NCBI GenBank assembly: GCA_000002435.2
Contig: CM018789.1
Source: Giardia intestinalis
Taxonomy: Eukaryota
Strand: one strand, 5' to 3'
Length of the DNA stretch: 64,000 bases
The notes under the pieces were generated by a model. The model was not told the DNA's origin. It searched no databases and saw only the letters and a list, made by a program, of their open reading frames with translations. Each line of letters begins with the position of its first letter. The first letter of the stretch is position 1. The position numbers and the translations under genes were made by a program. Below, piece by piece: positions 50,792-55,626 of this stretch.

Positions 50792-52897
50792 CTACGCTAG
50801 CTGCTTCTTAAGGACGGCCAGTTCATTAGAAAACCTCCCTATCTCGCTCGATAGCTCCGAATATAGAAACTCTCCTGTGGTATGGTCAAAGGTAATTGGC
50901 TGTGTGACCATACCCTTTTCTGTAAAGCGGGCGCTTCTTCGAGCGTTTATGAAGCTTTCTATTGGATTGTTCTTTGATTGTACGTTGTTTCGAGCGTCCA
51001 CTGATGATGTAGGGATACTGGCTAAGGATACGGTAGGCAGAGAGCCACCAGGGGGCTCCTTTTGCGATTCACATCGCGCCTCAAGGGGTATATCTGTGAG
51101 GCCACCATCTCTCCCTTTTATTGTAAAAGTTGGGCTTCTTCTATTATAGCGCATGTTAGTGGCCTTATTACCGCCACCCATCTCATTGCCAAAGTTCCAA
51201 TCTTTATTAGTTGTAGTAATTATATCAAGATCTACACTTTGTAGATTGTCTTTATACTTAGTGATGAAAAGAGGAGTCATCTTATTTTCAACATTATTTC
51301 CGATTGAGCTGGCCCCTAGTTTTTTACTAGAAGCCAATAGATGCCGTTGGTCTGCAACTATAACTCTTGATCTGCTAAAATCATTCTGGGCTCCTGTGTC
51401 TATATGTCTCAAAGCAGAAGCTGATGGTAAAGAGCTACTCATTCTCAAAGATTTAAGAGCAGATCTAGCATTCGATACAAGGACATCTTGCTCTTCTGTA
51501 GTCATGGGTTTGTTACGAAGATCAGAGCGGAGAGCAGAGGCCGACTTTAAAGTGCTAGGCACAGCGTCCATCGGGGTTGCTGTGCTACCTTGTAGTGCAT
51601 CAAGAATAACTGCATCCGGTATTCGATCTATTAAGGAGGGTAAGACATGACAAACCCTTTTAGTTAATCCTATAAGGCCTTGGGGTTCTTGCTGTTTCTC
51701 TTGGGGAAAACTGGATTGTTGATTGTGCCGCTCAATCGTAGCCCACTTAAGGGCATCATTTTTTGATACCTCGACCAGCTTGATTGATACCTTGTGATCT
51801 GCGCTAGTTTCACCAAGTTCAAGGGCTACACGCGATTGCTCAGTGAACGAGTCCTTATCTTTTTTACTAGAATGGTCGAGCAATGAGTTTGACGTAGAAT
51901 TAATTGACTGTTTGGCAGATAGACTCCTACTACTATCCGTAACGGCATCGATATGGGCTGCACTATTGCTGAAGCTTCGTGGAGCTGGAACCAAGATAGA
52001 CTTCCTCTGTAGTGTGTCGGAACTAATAGAGCGACGAGCGGGCATCTTCTGTGCTGCTTTAGATCTCAGTGTGGTGGAATGGGCAGAAGTAAGAGAGTCT
52101 GTTAGAGGCTTGATCCCAAAGTGTGCCAATACATTTGATACAGATAGGCCTGATTCCGCTGCATCTAAAAGGAAATTCTTCTTAGCATGCATTTGTGCAC
52201 CGACAAGACCTGCTCTATGCATAGTCGATAGTAAATTACTATAGTACCCATTGCACGTAAGAGGAGCTGTTCGGAAGGGAGTATCCATCGGGGTGATAAC
52301 CGAAGAGCTATAGGAGCAGTCGGCGGCGAGAAAGTCTTCGTGCTCTTTTTCATCTTCGTGGGCATCGACAAATGTAACACAGGGCTCGTGACCCAGTGAG
52401 CTCATTGCTGTCTGCGGTGCGTCCTTTATACCAGAGCTGATGCTTAGCATCCCAGTGGTGTTAAGCGTGTCTTCGTTGGCAGTGTTATCTAAAATAGTCG
52501 GATGAGGCGAGCTTATGCCTGTCTCCAAGTGCAGTCCAGGGTGCAATGCACTCTCCTCAGATAGTTTTACGGGCTCTGCTTCTCCAGGACACAGTGTGCT
52601 ATTATTGAGGCCATCGGAGCCACATGTCAAAATGCTGGAAAACCCGGATTCGCTGGTAGTGAGCGGAAAGGAGCGATCGGTCTGCAGGGTGGTATTTGTG
52701 ATTGTGCTCATCGAAATGGTGTTATGGTTTCCATCGAATATGACGGGCCCGAAGCTCTTATTTCTAGGAGGAGGAGCTGAATTTCCTCGAGCACCAGAAT
52801 CGACAAGCTGGTCTCGGAACACGTTCCCAATGGCAAGCCGCTCCAGAAGCATTTGGTCTGTTCGTGGCTGAGCGAGGGCCCGTTCAATCCGGAGCAT
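50792..52897 (-). CDS. Hypothetical Ser/Thr-rich protein (start uncertain; ORF remains open through a GC-rich island up to the tRNA)
   Basis: A conservative start is the ATG at ~52897 (MLRIERALAQ). Upstream, the frame stays open with an in-frame ATG at ~53197 (MPPARVRLPPGH...). That ATG lies only ~10 nt beyond the tRNA terminator. The track start at 53353 is TTG and would overlap the tRNA. Confidence 0.5.
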   Translation of the reverse strand: MLRIERALAQPRTDQMLLERLAIGNVFRDQLVDSGARGNSAPPPRNKSFGPVIFDGNHNTISMSTITNTTLQTDRSFPLTTSESGFSSILTCGSDGLNNSTLCPGEAEPVKLSEESALHPGLHLETGISSPHPTILDNTANEDTLNTTGMLSISSGIKDAPQTAMSSLGHEPCVTFVDAHEDEKEHEDFLAADCSYSSSVITPMDTPFRTAPLTCNGYYSNLLSTMHRAGLVGAQMHAKKNFLLDAAESGLSVSNVLAHFGIKPLTDSLTSAHSTTLRSKAAQKMPARRSISSDTLQRKSILVPAPRSFSNSAAHIDAVTDSSRSLSAKQSINSTSNSLLDHSSKKDKDSFTEQSRVALELGETSADHKVSIKLVEVSKNDALKWATIERHNQQSSFPQEKQQEPQGLIGLTKRVCHVLPSLIDRIPDAVILDALQGSTATPMDAVPSTLKSASALRSDLRNKPMTTEEQDVLVSNARSALKSLRMSSSLPSASALRHIDTGAQNDFSRSRVIVADQRHLLASSKKLGASSIGNNVENKMTPLFITKYKDNLQSVDLDIITTTNKDWNFGNEMGGGNKATNMRYNRRSPTFTIKGRDGGLTDIPLEARCESQKEPPGGSLPTVSLASIPTSSVDARNNVQSKNNPIESFINARRSARFTEKGMVTQPITFDHTTGEFLYSELSSEIGRFSNELAVLKKQLA

Positions 52898-53201
52898 CTC
52901 CTCGAGCTGCCCGGCATCCGAACTTCCTTGTGACTCGACATACGCGGCTCCAAACCTCCGGCGGCGGAAGGAATTCTGAGCCTGGGCTCCTGATGGGTAG
53001 CAGGAAGCGTACCTAGACGGTTCGGGATGCGCTAGGGAGTCAAGAGCAGTCGGGGACCTGGACCGGGGGACTAGCGCGGGGTGGAGCGGAACGGGCCGGC
53101 GCGCCACGGCTGGCGGGGCGGGGTGGCGAGGATGGAAGCGCGGGCTGACGTGGTCGACGCGGTGGCCGGGGGGAAGCCGGACGCGCGCAGGGGGCATTGG
53201 G

Positions 53202-53205
53202 AAAA
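53202..53205 (-). terminator. Pol III oligo-T terminator of tRNA-Tyr
   Basis: On the minus strand, TTTT follows the discriminator base directly (plus strand 'gaaaat'). Confidence 0.5.
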
Positions 53206-53289
53206 TCCTCGCTGCCGGATTCGAACCAGCGACCGTTCGGTGACTGCGGACTCTACAGCCGAACGCTCTACCAACTGAGCTAAGCGAGG
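53206..53289 (-). tRNA. tRNA-Tyr(GUA): tRNA-Tyr (anticodon GUA) with 11-nt intron 3' of the anticodon
   Basis: Reverse complement: CCTCGCT-TA-GCTCAGTTGGTAGAGC-G-TTCGG-CTGTAG[AGTCCGCAGTC]A-CCGAA-CGGTC-GCTGGTTCGAATCCGGC-AGCGAGG-A. The acceptor stem forms 7 Watson-Crick pairs (CCTCGCT/AGCGAGG). D-arm GCTC/GAGC. Anticodon stem TTCGG/CCGAA. The anticodon loop after intron removal is CUGUAGA, with G34 U35 A36. T-arm GCTGG-TTCGAAT-CCGGC. Apart from the acceptor and anticodon stems it is nearly the same as eukaryotic tRNA-Tyr genes, which carry an intron at this position. Confidence 0.85.
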
Positions 53290-53355
53290 CCTGAGCGCCT
53301 TGACAGCGCCAAATAAACACAAGAGGGCTTGATCTGCAGGCTTGGTGACCCAAAA

Positions 53356-53919
53356 ATGGGCATCGCCCTCGGCCGGCTCATCCAGTCCCTCTTCGGCTCC
53401 CGCCAAGCACGCGTCGTCATGGTCGGGCTCGACGCCGCTGGGAAGACGACGATCCTCCATCAGATGGCCTACGGGATGACCGTGGAGACGATCCCGACGA
53501 TGGGCTTCACCCTGCAGACAGTAAAAAAGGGCAAGCTGGAGCTCGACGTGTGGGACATCGGTGGCCAGTCCGAGTTCCGCAATATCTGGGTTCACTACTA
53601 TGTCGATAAGCACGCTGCTATCTTCGTCGTCGATGCAGCAGACCACAGTAAAGCACGCATGGAGGAGGCTCGGACGGCTCTTGAGGGCGTACTAACAGCC
53701 CCAGAGCTCTCAGGTGTTCCCATCCTCATCCTCGCCAACAAGCAGGACATAGACGGTGCCATGTCCGGGGACGCCGTGGCAAGCATGTTAGACCTACAGA
53801 ACGTCAAGGATCACGAAGTGAAGGTCGTGGAAACGGTCGGAACTACGGGAAAGGGCCTTGACGACGCCCTTAAGTGGTTGAGCACGGCTATTGAGCGGCG
53901 CTGGAAGGAGACTAGCTAA
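53356..53919 (+). CDS. ARF-like small GTPase (ARL2/ARL3-type)
   Basis: The track start at 53329 is TTG; the first ATG at 53356 gives 'MGIALGRLIQSLFG', with Gly2. G1 'GLDAAGKTT'. G3 'WDIGGQ'. G4 'NKQD'. 'TIPTMGF' switch I. Size ~188 aa. Confidence 0.9.
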   Translation: MGIALGRLIQSLFGSRQARVVMVGLDAAGKTTILHQMAYGMTVETIPTMGFTLQTVKKGKLELDVWDIGGQSEFRNIWVHYYVDKHAAIFVVDAADHSKARMEEARTALEGVLTAPELSGVPILILANKQDIDGAMSGDAVASMLDLQNVKDHEVKVVETVGTTGKGLDDALKWLSTAIERRWKETS

Positions 53920-53927
53920 GTAAACAG

Positions 53928-55333
53928 CTACTTCAGCGTGTAGTCTTCTATGACCTGGGAAATGGTGATCAGGGCGTCCCGGATGACCGTCGGTGTGACC
54001 CCAAACCGTTCATAATGCCACATGTACGCACCAGCCTGCATGCGCGCTTTCATGTCCAGGACAAGATCGCCAAGAGTTCTAGAGAAAACGTTACCATTCA
54101 GAATCAAGGCAGCACTCGGAGGCACATCTTCTCTCAGATTCTCCCCTCGAAGGGAGACGGGATAATCAGACTTGCCTGGTCGGTAGTATGGGTAGAGATC
54201 GTAAAAGCTCGATTGCATGAGCGTGGAATATGCCTCTTTGATGCCTTGTCGCTGACCCTTTATATCTTGCTGCTTTGCTCGGGTATATGAATTAAGAACA
54301 GCAGGGTCTAAATCCTTCAGTTGTAGGTAGTCATCAGTGTTAACGTACCCAGAAACGAACTGCTCAGCATCAGAAGAGCGTAGCACTATGTGAGACCGCA
54401 CAAGACGAGTAAAGTAGTTCCTATCCTCAAGACGCTGTTGCCAGTCCATACACGCATCGCCCGGGCTTCCGGTTATCATTATCTGCCTGCAGCGGGAAAT
54501 AATTGATCGAAGCGTTTGATGTTGACTATCATGGGAGGGGAAGCTCGGAACCACACGTGGAGCCAGAAGCTTATAAAGCACAGAAGGCACTGTCTGCTCT
54601 AACAAGTCAGTGACAGGCCTCCGCAAGCCTGACAAGTTATAGGCCAAGGTACGCCCAATCACTGCGTTTAGCTGCATGAGGGACGGCCGTGCACCAGAGA
54701 GGCGGCTCTGTTGGTTCTTGACGATAGTGGCCGCCTCATCATTTCCGAAAAGAAGGATACCATCCGCTTCCTGGATGAGGAAAGCCAAAGAAAGACTTGT
54801 ATTGTACTGCTGCGTTAGAACCTCCCCAGAAGCAAAGGGAACAACGCAATTGCAAAGAATAGCCGACTTAGGGTAGTGGTCACGTAGATGACCTATTACA
54901 TGGCTACCCAGGCCCGACCCTGTTCCACCAGCTAGAGACAAGATGCCAAAGAACCCATCTATGTATGTGTTCGCTTCCTCAGCGTACTTCCTCACGCCCT
55001 CTAGTATTTTGGGAAGCTCTCTAGGTCCGTGCTCCATATATCCGTGGGCCCAATTGTTGCCAGAGCCAGATTGACCAAAGATAGCTGACCTTGCGTTGTA
55101 GTGAAATCTTCCATCGATAACGTCATTTTTGCCCAGGCAGGACTTCAGTATCGCCTTAGGCTCCATGTCTATCATAAGCGCCTTAGCGTATATGCTTCCG
55201 TCAGAGGCCTGTCCAAACCAAGGCGTAGCGTCGCCGTTACCTCCCGACTCCTGCAAGTAGTCCATCATGGTTGCGAAGAAAGCAGGCCCGAGCTGGTTTC
55301 CGTACTGGCCGAACTGGAGGGTCAGGGTCGCCA
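53928..55333 (-). CDS. TUBD: Delta-tubulin
   Basis: The first ATG at ~55333 gives 'MATLTLQFGQYGNQLG'. 'GSGNNWAHGYMEHGPRELPKILEGVRK' matches delta-tubulin 'GSGNNWAYGYSVHGPRHEESIMNIIRK'. Tubulin signature 'LAGGTGSGLGS'. 'YPKSAILCNCVVPFASGEVLTQQYNTSLSLAFL' matches delta '[33 protein letters not shown]'. The track start at 55370 is TTG. Confidence 0.85.
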
Positions 55334-55626
55334 TCTCATTAATTAATGCCTCATCAAAAATGACCCACAAAACTTTTAATCACCGAAGCATTTAAAATTA
55401 GCGCTGTAAGGCAACCTTAGAAGTGCGTCTTCTGGGAAATTCCCTGGGCGTCGGGCAGAAAGTGCCGGTCCTCTGGATTCCGGGGAGTGTCTGGTGCCGA
55501 TCGGACACTCCCTAGCCGCCACACTGACAGTTATGGTTGCAGGACAAGCTTAGCGAGTCCGAACTCGACAGGGATACTCTACAGCGTTCCTTTATTCAAT
55601 CATTGACGGGCGTGTCGCTATCACGC

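What the first reader, a model, noticed from the sequence alone, without database searches (positions are those of the whole stretch)
52900..53200. About 300-bp GC-rich island immediately 3' of the tRNA-Tyr gene, open in several reading frames
The island sits between the conservative start of the 853-aa ORF (~52897) and the tRNA terminator (53202..53205). It is far more GC-rich than the window average ('ggaccgggggactagcgcggggtggagcggaacgggccggcgcgccacggctggcggggcggggtggcgagg...'). ORFs appear in at least three frames: the minus 50792..53353 extension, plus 53081..53278, and minus 53071..53646. This is the expected pattern for GC-rich non-coding DNA. Alternatively it may encode a Pro/Arg-rich N-terminal extension ('MPPARVRLPPGHRVDHVSPRFHPRHPAPPAVARRPVPLHP...') starting about 10 nt after the tRNA terminator. 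It is the second anomalous GC-rich patch in the window. It shares no sequence with the cathepsin tract.
Basis: seen in the sequence. Interest (0 to 1): 0.5.

Follow-up and report, generated by a model that had tools for sequence, protein, structure and literature searches.

The report
GC-rich start of a Giardia gene
The GC-rich patch next to the tRNA-Tyr gene is not spacer DNA but the conserved, proline/arginine/histidine-rich first ~100 codons of an already annotated Giardia hypothetical protein, so it is essentially ordinary.

Summary
Window 52900-53199 is 70% GC, against 47.3 ± 4.3% for 300-bp windows, and the core 53060-53200 is about 80% GC. It lies directly 3' of an intron-containing tRNA-Tyr(GTA) gene.

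The window is Giardia intestinalis WB. The ORF starting at the ATG at 53195-53197 (minus strand, 8 nt after the tRNA 3' end) is exactly the annotated 801-aa protein GL50803_0035140.

Orthologous loci from five other G. intestinalis lineages show the island is coding:
- The ATG is conserved and the frame is open (787-802 aa).
- There are no gaps in codons 1-100, while the tRNA-ATG spacer varies from 8 to 21 nt.
- Substitutions fall mainly on third codon positions (A vs B [10,12,47], p=7e-9).
- dN/dS is about 0.15.

A divergent, syntenic Giardia-like species has no tRNA and no GC anomaly at this site, yet it still aligns to the island peptide.

There is no sign of an RNA gene, RNA structure, repeat or G-quadruplex.

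The GC-richness comes from amino-acid composition (GC1 0.93) plus C-biased silent sites (GC3 0.83 against 0.44 for the rest of the gene). The Arf-like gene on the other side of the tRNA shows the same silent-site bias. That regional bias is the only unexplained residue.

Verdict: already annotated, low interest.

The parts
53072..53197 (-). GC-rich core of the island: codons 1-42 of GL50803_0035140 (MPPARVRLPPGHRVDHVSPRFHPRHPAPPAVARRPVPLHPAL). GC 0.79; GC1 0.93, GC2 0.62, GC3 0.83.
   Evidence: The ATG is conserved in all lineages. Differences by codon position: A-E [0,0,6], A-B [1,5,14]. dN/dS is about 0.15. The peptide aligns to residues 51-87 of the divergent homologue P0035, with 0 of 2000 shuffles reaching the observed score.
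52898..53071 (-). Less GC-rich tail of the island: codons 43-100. It holds a variable linker and the conserved NSFRRRRFGAAY(V/I)ESQG motif. GC is about 0.62.
   Evidence: Differences by codon position A-B [9,7,33]; dN 0.14 against dS >1. No gap columns in codons 1-100. The NSFRRRRF motif is also present in P0035.
53195..53197 (-). Start codon of GL50803_0035140, the first ATG of the open frame.
   Evidence: The translation from this ATG is identical to XP_037901572.1 / KAE8301399.1. 'AATGCC' is conserved in all six lineages.
50792..53197 (-). Whole CDS of hypothetical protein GL50803_0035140 (801 aa plus stop).
   Evidence: No Pfam domain. The AlphaFold model has mean pLDDT 31.5, a few short helices, and no secondary structure in residues 1-93.
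53198..53205 (-). 8-nt spacer TTTTCCCA between the tRNA 3' end and the ATG. It contains the T4 Pol III terminator (53202-53205). It is the only non-tRNA sequence available for the mRNA 5' UTR or initiator.
   Evidence: Sequence. Spacer length is 8, 8, 14, 14, 20 and 21 nt in different lineages, so indels are not multiples of 3.
53206..53289 (-). tRNA-Tyr(GTA) gene with an 11-nt intron (53242-53252).
53356..53919 (+). Divergently oriented Arf-like GTPase gene. Its first 42 codons share the C/G-ending codon bias (GC3 0.91).
53081..53278 (+). Chance ORF (65 aa) antisense to the island, running into the tRNA gene. Not a gene.
   Evidence: It overlaps the tRNA. Substitution periodicity fits the minus-strand frame of GL50803_0035140.

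Best explanation
The island is protein-coding. It is the first ~100 codons of the annotated Giardia intestinalis WB gene GL50803_0035140 (801 aa, function unknown), read on the minus strand from the ATG at 53195-53197.

Shown:
- The segment has been under purifying selection as protein throughout the diversification of G. intestinalis, and the peptide is recognisable in a more distant Giardia-like species.
- The high GC has two sources. One is an amino-acid composition made almost only of residues with G/C-rich codons: P 13, R 8, V 6, A 5 and H 5 of the first 45 residues, giving GC1 0.93. The other is a strong preference for C- and G-ending synonymous codons (GC3 0.83; C 0.55 at four-fold sites).
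- GC-rich sequence has few stop codons, so the other frames are open by chance.

Inferred:
- The encoded segment is an intrinsically disordered, basic, proline-rich N-terminal tail carrying short conserved motifs (L8, H12, V14, H16, P19, F21, P23-R24; two RxxPxxP strings). It probably acts as a docking or targeting segment rather than a folded domain.
- The ATG lies 8 nt after the tRNA, so the mRNA must start either within that spacer or inside the tRNA gene. The spacer option would give a 5' UTR of at most 8 nt, which is in Giardia's usual range, with the tRNA's T run possibly doubling as the A/T-rich initiator.
For: 1. Identity. The window is Giardia: Gl_RNase_MRP scores 239.5 bits at 55400-55588. 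The 801-aa translation from ATG 53197 is an exact match to GL50803_0035140 / XP_037901572.1. The DH, P15 and GS annotations start at the same ATG (801, 802 and 787 aa).

2. Conserved ORF. In five of the six other G. intestinalis loci examined (L006, L004, L001, L003, L002) the ATG is conserved and the frame is open for 787-802 aa; the sixth, L005, is covered in the Against line. A second assemblage-B isolate (L007) has no frameshifting indels across the island.

3. No indels. There are no gap columns in codons 1-100. The adjacent tRNA-ATG spacer varies between 8, 14, 20 and 21 nt.

4. Codon periodicity of substitutions over codons 1-100: A-E [7,5,23] p=2e-4; A-B [10,12,47] p=7e-9; L003-L002 [23,16,37] p=0.01. 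For the core alone: A-E [0,0,6] and A-B [1,5,14].

5. Selection. Core dN/dS is about 0.15, the same as or lower than the rest of the gene.

6. Distant homologue. P0035/L008 keeps the synteny tubulin-Arf-(SPC12)-orthologue but has no tRNA and no GC anomaly here (0.59 against about 0.54). It aligns residues 51-175 to WB residues 6-126 (phmmer E=1.3e-10; BLASTP 5e-14). The island peptide alone scores 62 against 33.9±4.9 for shuffles, with 0 of 2000 shuffles reaching it, and it aligns at the colinear position.

7. Nothing else is there. Rfam gives no hit at E≤10 apart from the tRNA. Folding z-scores are -0.12 and +0.43. The alignment-fold covariation term is -1.36 kcal/mol. There is no repeat copy and no canonical G4 motif.
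Against: - There is no direct transcript or peptide evidence here. The TSS is not mapped, and no paper in the library mentions the gene ID.
- The island's codon usage is unlike the rest of the gene and unlike 28 other long ORFs in the window.
- One near-identical contig (L005) carries two 1-nt deletions in C runs that break the frame. In contrast, 22 contigs encode the exact 801-aa protein, so these deletions are most likely homopolymer assembly errors.
- The structural statement ('disordered') rests on a low-confidence model built from a 7-sequence alignment.
- The promoter inference conflicts with the usual Giardia arrangement of a 50-60 bp promoter directly upstream of the ATG (PMC12209930). 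Here that space is the tRNA gene.
Confidence: 0.93

Rival explanations
1. The island is coding, and in addition its extreme silent-site G/C (mainly C) content is imposed by a local nucleotide-level force centred on the tRNA-Tyr gene and the divergent promoter. Candidates are GC-biased gene conversion at a recombination-prone Pol III gene, selection to keep the tRNA flanks free of A/T-rich initiator-like or T-run sequences, and G tracts on the template strand that bind Giardia TBP. This adds to the best explanation and does not replace it.
For: - GC3 of the first 42 codons is 0.83 against 0.44 for the rest of the gene. The excess of 0.39 compares with 0.008±0.12 across 29 long ORFs.
- High core GC3 is kept in all lineages (0.67-0.86).
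- The Arf-like gene on the other side of the tRNA has GC3 0.86-0.91 in its first 42 codons in every G. intestinalis lineage. In the divergent species that has no tRNA at this site it is 0.57, for an almost identical peptide.
- 7 of the window's 115 G≥4 runs lie in 53050-53200. Giardia TBP binds ssDNA with four or more consecutive G (PMC12209930).
- The other GC-rich patches in the window are a conversion-like tract shared by two paralogs.
Against: - Four-fold sites in the core diverge as fast as in the rest of the gene: mean pairwise difference 0.437 against 0.473, and all-identical sites 4/19 against 21/143 (p=0.5). No specific sequence is being conserved, only a composition.
- The apparent low dS by the Nei-Gojobori method is not reproduced at four-fold sites and is probably a composition effect.
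- The association with the tRNA rests on one locus and one outgroup.
- The bias is C>G on each gene's own sense strand, which looks more like codon preference than strand-symmetric gene conversion.
- The G tracts lie downstream of the ATG, not in the promoter, and most are not conserved between assemblages.
Confidence: 0.3
2. The island is GC-rich non-coding DNA, either a long 5' UTR or a spacer, and the real start codon is the ATG at 52895-52897 (Met101). The upstream frame is open only because GC-rich DNA lacks stop codons.
For: - Three frames are open across the island.
- Codon usage is atypical.
- Prokaryote-style gene callers sometimes picked later starts in other lineages (P0002, P0004, P0006, P0027).
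Against: - Third-position excess of substitutions, dN/dS about 0.15, no indels in 300 nt across six lineages while the neighbouring spacer has indels, and a conserved ATG.
- Protein-level homology of the island peptide in a distant species.
- Where a later start was called, the DNA has no frameshift or stop in the island.
- A 5' UTR of about 300 nt would be very unusual for Giardia (general knowledge; promoters abut the ATG, PMC12209930).
Confidence: 0.03
3. The conserved ~130 nt after the tRNA is a non-coding RNA or RNA element made with the tRNA. It could be a dicistronic tRNA-ncRNA unit, a tRNA trailer-derived RNA, or an antisense G-rich RNA.
For: - It lies immediately 3' of a Pol III gene whose terminator is minimal (T4) or degenerate (TTCTTT in L002).
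- The core has higher nucleotide identity between assemblages than the rest of the gene.
Against: - No Rfam family at E≤10 on either strand, although the Rfam run did detect the Giardia RNase MRP family elsewhere in the window.
- Folding energy is no better than shuffles on either strand.
- The consensus fold is weak, -16.4 kcal/mol over 175 columns with covariation -1.36.
- Substitutions follow codon positions, not helices.
- Silent sites are not conserved.
Confidence: 0.02

Closest known systems
GL50803_0035140 (XP_037901572.1 / KAE8301399.1; UniRef100_D3KGX8), hypothetical protein of Giardia intestinalis WB. Orthologues: DHA2_150923, GLP15_5180, GL50581_2276, QR46_0859.
   Same: Identical sequence. 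The island is codons 1-100 of this annotated CDS, and the annotations in assemblages A, E and B all begin at the same ATG.
   Different: Nothing differs. The annotation gives no function, and the compositional peculiarity of the N-terminus is not recorded in anything I could search.
Proline-rich, basic, intrinsically disordered N-terminal tails with PxxP-type short linear motifs (SH3/WW-ligand-like segments)
   Same: 13 of the first 45 residues are Pro and 8 are Arg. The strings RFHPRHP and RPVPLHP fit RxxPxxP. RFHPRHP is invariant in the G. intestinalis lineages, while RPVPLHP has Q in place of the first R in assemblage B. No secondary structure is predicted for residues 1-93.
   Different: No binding partner or domain is known. 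In the divergent homologue the RxxPxxP strings are not kept; only L8, H12, V14, H16, P19, F21 and P23-R24 are. This is a resemblance from sequence pattern only and was not tested.
Dicistronic tRNA-ncRNA units (plant tRNA-snoRNA genes; MALAT1-mascRNA type processing)
   Same: A conserved sequence begins a few nucleotides after a tRNA 3' end.
   Different: The downstream sequence evolves as protein. It shows no structure or covariation and matches no RNA family.
GC-rich tracts produced by GC-biased gene conversion or local codon bias
   Same: Silent sites are shifted to G/C over a few hundred bp on both sides of one point, while still diverging at the normal rate.
   Different: No conversion partner exists: phmmer against 1.84 billion representatives finds only orthologues and there is no copy in the window. 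The bias is C>G on each sense strand. The mechanism was not tested.

Membership tests
Protein-coding sequence (N-terminus of the GL50803_0035140 orthologue group) | Open reading frame and start codon conserved between lineages | tested here: met
   The ATG is conserved and the ORF is 787-802 aa in window, L006, L004, L001, L003 and L002. L007 has no frameshifting indels across the island. L005 is the exception, with two homopolymer deletions.
Protein-coding sequence (N-terminus of the GL50803_0035140 orthologue group) | Substitutions concentrated at third codon positions; dN/dS well below 1 | tested here: met
   Codons 1-100: [10,12,47] for A-B (p=7e-9) and [7,5,23] for A-E. Core dN/dS is about 0.15.
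Protein-coding sequence (N-terminus of the GL50803_0035140 orthologue group) | No frame-breaking indels where neighbouring non-coding DNA has them | tested here: met
   There are 0 gap columns in codons 1-100. The tRNA-ATG spacer is 8/8/14/14/20/21 nt and the Arf-tRNA spacer varies in length (65-71 nt as printed).
Protein-coding sequence (N-terminus of the GL50803_0035140 orthologue group) | Amino-acid similarity retained in distant relatives after DNA similarity is lost | tested here: met
   P0035 residues 51-87 align with WB residues 6-42 (14 of 37 identical). Smith-Waterman score is 62 against 33.9±4.9 for shuffles, 0 of 2000 reaching it. The locus is syntenic.
Protein-coding sequence (N-terminus of the GL50803_0035140 orthologue group) | Codon usage like other genes of the genome | tested here: not met
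   GC3 is 0.83 against a mean of 0.50 for the first 42 codons of 29 ORFs. Only the Arf-like gene's 5' end is similar. This is an atypical feature, not a disqualifying one.
Protein-coding sequence (N-terminus of the GL50803_0035140 orthologue group) | Transcribed and translated (mRNA 5' end upstream of the ATG; peptides) | not testable with these tools
   No RNA-seq or proteomics access. No paper mentions the gene ID.
Structured non-coding RNA gene (any Rfam family, including Giardia snRNA, snoRNA and RNase P/MRP families) | Match to a covariance model | tested here: not met
   Over 52600-53500, on both strands and at E≤10, only the tRNA and a 10-bit chance hit appear.
Structured non-coding RNA gene (any Rfam family, including Giardia snRNA, snoRNA and RNase P/MRP families) | Folding energy better than shuffles; compensatory base changes | tested here: not met
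   z-scores are -0.12 (minus strand) and +0.43 (plus strand). The alignment-fold covariation term is -1.36 kcal/mol.
G-quadruplex-forming element | Four G3+ runs with loops of 1-7 nt | tested here: not met
   No such motif occurs on either strand anywhere in the window, although G≥4 runs are locally dense.
Repeat or mobile element | Additional copies | tested here: not met
   blastn of the island against the window finds only itself. phmmer finds only orthologues. The rest of the genome was not searched at the DNA level.

The most novel reading that the evidence does not exclude
The island may be the steepest part of a ~1.2-kb compositional hump centred on the tRNA-Tyr gene. In this hump both divergently transcribed neighbours use almost only C/G-ending codons in their first 40-100 codons. 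The pattern is kept in every G. intestinalis assemblage and is absent from a related species that lacks the tRNA at this site. If it is general, Pol III genes in Giardia would locally reshape the silent-site composition of adjacent Pol II genes. That could happen through recombination-associated GC-biased conversion, or through selection against A/T-rich initiator-like sequences next to Pol III genes. A Pol II gene would also be initiating within 8 nt of, or inside, a tRNA gene.
Probability: 0.2. Interest if true: 0.45.

Novelty: already known. Interest (0 to 1): 0.14.

Why it matters
It matters little in itself. The result confirms that the reference annotation's long start for GL50803_0035140 is right, and that the GC-rich patch is not a hidden RNA gene or regulatory island.

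Two minor points follow:
- In Giardia, a codon-usage or GC3 test on one genome can wrongly reject a real coding N-terminus, while comparison between assemblages settles the question.
- This gene's start codon sits 8 nt after a tRNA gene. That makes it a convenient natural case for asking how Giardia's minimal Pol II promoters work when the whole 'promoter' space is occupied by a Pol III gene.

Tried and rejected
- Rfam, on the whole window at gathering thresholds and on the island at E≤10, found only the tRNA and Giardia RNase MRP. The ncRNA idea was dropped.
- Single-strand folding of both strands and RNAalifold on six lineages gave no signal.
- Nei-Gojobori dS suggested about 2-4-fold lower synonymous divergence in the core. 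I took this as a possible overlapping constraint. Analysis of four-fold sites showed normal divergence, so I rejected it, most likely as a composition effect.
- A profile search with the N-terminal alignment A4 in the word-indexed protein database returned nothing, not even the orthologues. It is uninformative, probably because low-complexity word candidates swamped it.
- Pfam gave no domain.
- AlphaFold2 on the 7-sequence alignment gave mean pLDDT 31.5. That is too poor for a fold search, so none was run.
- Literature searches for the gene ID and for the SRA run accessions gave 0 papers. A search on Giardia Pol III and tRNA gene context gave nothing specific.
- I looked for transcript-like contigs to place the mRNA 5' end. 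The contigs span several genes and the library types are unknown. One contig (L004) starts with an Illumina adapter joined 12 nt upstream of the ATG, which is suggestive but cannot be interpreted.
- A canonical G-quadruplex motif is absent.

Full report
**What is there.** The window is Giardia intestinalis. A complete Giardia RNase MRP RNA lies at 55400-55588 (239.5 bits). The proteins encoded around the finding match Giardia records exactly.

The flagged stretch 52900-53199 has GC 0.70. Over all 300-bp windows of the 64-kb window the mean is 0.473 and the sd 0.043, so this is more than 5 sd above the mean. The steepest part, 53060-53199, reaches 0.77-0.83 in 60-bp windows.

The adjacent gene at 53206-53289 (minus strand) is tRNA-Tyr(GTA), 73 nt plus an 11-nt intron at position 37/38 (53242-53252). 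ARAGORN in bacterial mode miscalled it Leu(tag). With introns allowed it gives Tyr, and Rfam tRNA scores 59.2 bits. The T4 run at 53202-53205 follows the discriminator base.

**Annotation.** The minus-strand ORF read from its first ATG (53195-53197) encodes 801 aa. This sequence is identical to GL50803_0035140 (XP_037901572.1, KAE8301399.1, UniRef100_D3KGX8), a hypothetical protein of strain WB. The deposited orthologues in DH (801 aa), P15 (802 aa) and GS/assemblage B (787 aa) begin at the same ATG. The island is thus already inside an annotated CDS. What remained was to test whether that annotation is right.

**Comparative test.** A protein search found six relatives. I fetched the DNA of the orthologous loci:
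- L006, about 97% identical to the window at protein level.
- L005, near-identical.
- L004, P15-like.
- L001 and L007, assemblage B.
- L003 and L002, two further lineages at 59-64% protein identity.

All keep the order tubulin - Arf-like GTPase - tRNA-Tyr - this gene.

The alignment of the region shows 'AATGCC...' conserved in every lineage directly after the tRNA. The frame from that ATG stays open for 787-802 aa. L007, for which a gene caller had chosen a later start, has no frameshift or stop in the island.

There is not a single gap column in codons 1-100 across six lineages. By contrast the tRNA-to-ATG spacer is 8, 8, 14, 14, 20 and 21 nt, and the Arf-to-tRNA spacer also varies in length.

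Substitutions fall overwhelmingly on third codon positions:
- Codons 1-100: [7,5,23] for A vs E (p=2e-4), [10,12,47] for A vs B (p=7e-9), [23,16,37] for L003 vs L002 (p=0.01).
- GC-rich core (codons 1-42) alone: [0,0,6] for A vs E and [1,5,14] for A vs B.

dN/dS in the core is about 0.15, equal to or below the rest of the gene.

The only discordant sequence is L005. It has two 1-nt deletions in C runs. Since 22 contigs encode the exact 801-aa protein, I treat these deletions as homopolymer errors.

**Distant homologue.** An exhaustive phmmer search of 1.84 billion representatives found only orthologues. One of them is a divergent 563-aa protein, P0035 (E=1.3e-10). Its locus (L008) keeps the synteny tubulin-Arf-(SPC12)-orthologue. 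It has no tRNA there and no compositional anomaly: about 0.59 GC at the homologous stretch against a background of about 0.54.

P0035 residues 51-175 align to WB residues 6-126 (BLASTP 5e-14). The island peptide alone (WB 6-42) aligns to P0035 51-87 at the colinear position with 14 of 37 identities. The Smith-Waterman score is 62 against 33.9±4.9 for 2000 shuffles, none of which reaches it. Positions L8, H12, V14, H16, P19, F21, P23, R24, V36, P40 and L42 are invariant across all six aligned sequences.

Protein-level conservation without DNA-level GC-richness is what a translated segment predicts. It is not what a DNA or RNA element predicts.

**Alternatives tested.**
- No Rfam family matches either strand of 52600-53500 at E≤10, apart from the tRNA.
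- The 146-nt core folds no better than dinucleotide shuffles on either strand (z = -0.12 and +0.43).
- The six-lineage consensus fold is weak, -16.4 kcal/mol with a covariation term of -1.36.
- The island has no second copy in the window and contains no canonical G-quadruplex motif.
- The plus-strand ORF 53081-53278 and the minus-strand ORF 53071-53646 run through the tRNA gene and antisense to the Arf-like gene.

**Why it is GC-rich.** There are two components.

First, amino-acid composition. Of the first 45 residues, 13 are Pro, 8 Arg, 6 Val, 5 Ala and 5 His. This gives GC1 0.93 and GC2 0.62.

Second, synonymous codon choice. GC3 is 0.83 in codons 1-42 against 0.44 for the rest of the gene. 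At four-fold sites C is 0.55 in the core and 0.24 in codons 101-801. This makes the gene an outlier among the 29 long ORFs of the window, where first-42-codon GC3 averages 0.50. The first-minus-rest difference is 0.39 here against 0.008±0.12 overall. The high core GC3 is kept in all lineages (0.67-0.86).

I first thought the core also had reduced synonymous divergence, because Nei-Gojobori pS was 0.38 against about 0.66 (Fisher p=8e-4 for A vs B). At four-fold sites with conserved first two bases, however, the core diverges as fast as the rest: mean pairwise difference 0.437 against 0.473, and all-identical sites 4/19 against 21/143 (p=0.5). No particular nucleotide sequence is under constraint. 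Only the composition is held.

**A regional effect, unexplained.** The Arf-like gene is transcribed divergently from the other side of the tRNA. Its first 42 codons have GC3 0.91 (C 0.60) against 0.71 for the rest of that gene. The other G. intestinalis lineages show the same (0.86-0.90). In L008, where no tRNA lies next to the gene, it is 0.57 for a nearly identical peptide.

The tubulin gene starts 65 nt from the RNase MRP RNA gene and shows a weaker version (0.76 against 0.53).

This could reflect a local process tied to Pol III genes, or simply codon preference in these genes. One locus and one outgroup cannot decide. Giardia TBP has been reported to bind single-stranded DNA with four or more consecutive G (PMC12209930), and 7 of the window's 115 G≥4 runs lie in 53050-53200. 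Those runs are downstream of the ATG and mostly not conserved between assemblages, so I give this little weight.

**How the gene is probably expressed (inferred).** Giardia promoters are described as 50-60 bp directly upstream of the start codon (PMC12209930, citing earlier work). Here that space is 8 nt of spacer (TTTTCCCA) plus the 3' two-thirds of the tRNA gene. Because codon 1 onward is under protein-level selection, the mRNA 5' end must lie in the spacer or inside the tRNA gene.

The simplest reading is Pol II initiation at or near the T run, giving a 5' UTR of at most 8 nt. That is normal for Giardia as far as I know (from memory, not checked here). Co-transcription with the tRNA followed by RNase Z cleavage is possible, but it would leave an uncapped mRNA.

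One contig of an assemblage-E-like isolate (L004) starts with an Illumina adapter fused to GATTTTCCCAATG, 12 nt before the ATG. I cannot tell whether this marks a real molecule end.

**The protein.** There is no Pfam domain. The AlphaFold2 model from the 7-sequence alignment is of low confidence (mean pLDDT 31.5) and shows no secondary structure in residues 1-93. The tail is most likely a disordered, basic, proline-rich segment with short conserved motifs. Two strings fit RxxPxxP, but that is pattern matching, not a test.

**Verdict.** The preferred interpretation (non-coding GC-rich DNA) is wrong, and the stated alternative (N-terminal coding extension) is right and already annotated. Novelty: already known. 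Interest is low. The only open residue is the silent-site G/C hump around the tRNA gene and the question of how a Pol II gene initiates 8 nt after a Pol III gene.

Noticed in passing
window 27515-27805 (minus) and 37090-37381 (plus): Two cathepsin-like paralogs (26686-28407 minus, 36561-38057 plus) share one 291-bp tract at 93.9% nucleotide identity with GC 0.71. It encodes an identical ~85-aa stretch. The rest of the two genes has no detectable nucleotide similarity. This looks like a gene-conversion tract, and it accounts for the other two GC-rich patches of the window.
   Followed up: partly
window 53356-53481 (plus); L001, L003, L006, L008: The first 42 codons of the Arf-like GTPase gene have GC3 0.86-0.91 (C about 0.55-0.60) in all G. 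intestinalis lineages. In the divergent species L008, which has no tRNA next to the gene, the value is 0.57 although the peptide is nearly identical.
   Followed up: partly
L004:1-40: The contig from Logan run SRR14195738 begins with Illumina adapter sequence (...CTCTTCCGATCT) joined directly to GATTTTCCCAATG. The junction is 2 nt before the tRNA 3' end and 12 nt before the ATG. It may mark a defined molecule end (TSS?) or be an assembly artefact. The library type is unknown.
   Followed up: no
window 53206-53289: ARAGORN in its default bacterial mode reports this gene as tRNA-Leu(tag), and as tRNA-???(agag) in L002. With introns allowed it is tRNA-Tyr(GTA) with an 11-nt intron. The intron sequence differs between two assemblage-B isolates (GGGTCCGCAGTC vs GAGTTCGCGGTT region) while the exons are identical.
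   Followed up: yes
L002:3818-3841: In this lineage the run of T after the tRNA is interrupted (TTCTTT), so it is not a canonical Pol III terminator. The 21-nt spacer also contains an out-of-frame ATG 7 nt before the conserved start codon.
   Followed up: no
window 55209-55334 (minus) next to 55400-55588 (plus): The tubulin-family gene starting 65 nt from the RNase MRP RNA gene also has raised GC3 in its first 42 codons (0.76 against 0.53 for the rest). It is the second-highest value among the 29 long ORFs of the window.
   Followed up: no
L005:3603-3760: A contig otherwise near-identical to the window has two single-base deletions in C runs of the island (CCCCCC to CCCCC, CCCCC to CCCC) that break the reading frame. 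These are probably homopolymer assembly errors in GC-rich sequence, since 22 other contigs encode the intact protein.
   Followed up: partly
window 50795-53197 (minus), protein residues 75-82 and 746-757: The protein contains two similar basic motifs, NSFRRRRF near the N-terminus and (S/I)FINARRSARF near the C-terminus. Both are conserved in the divergent homologue P0035 (NNFRRRRF, IFINRRRSARH).
   Followed up: no
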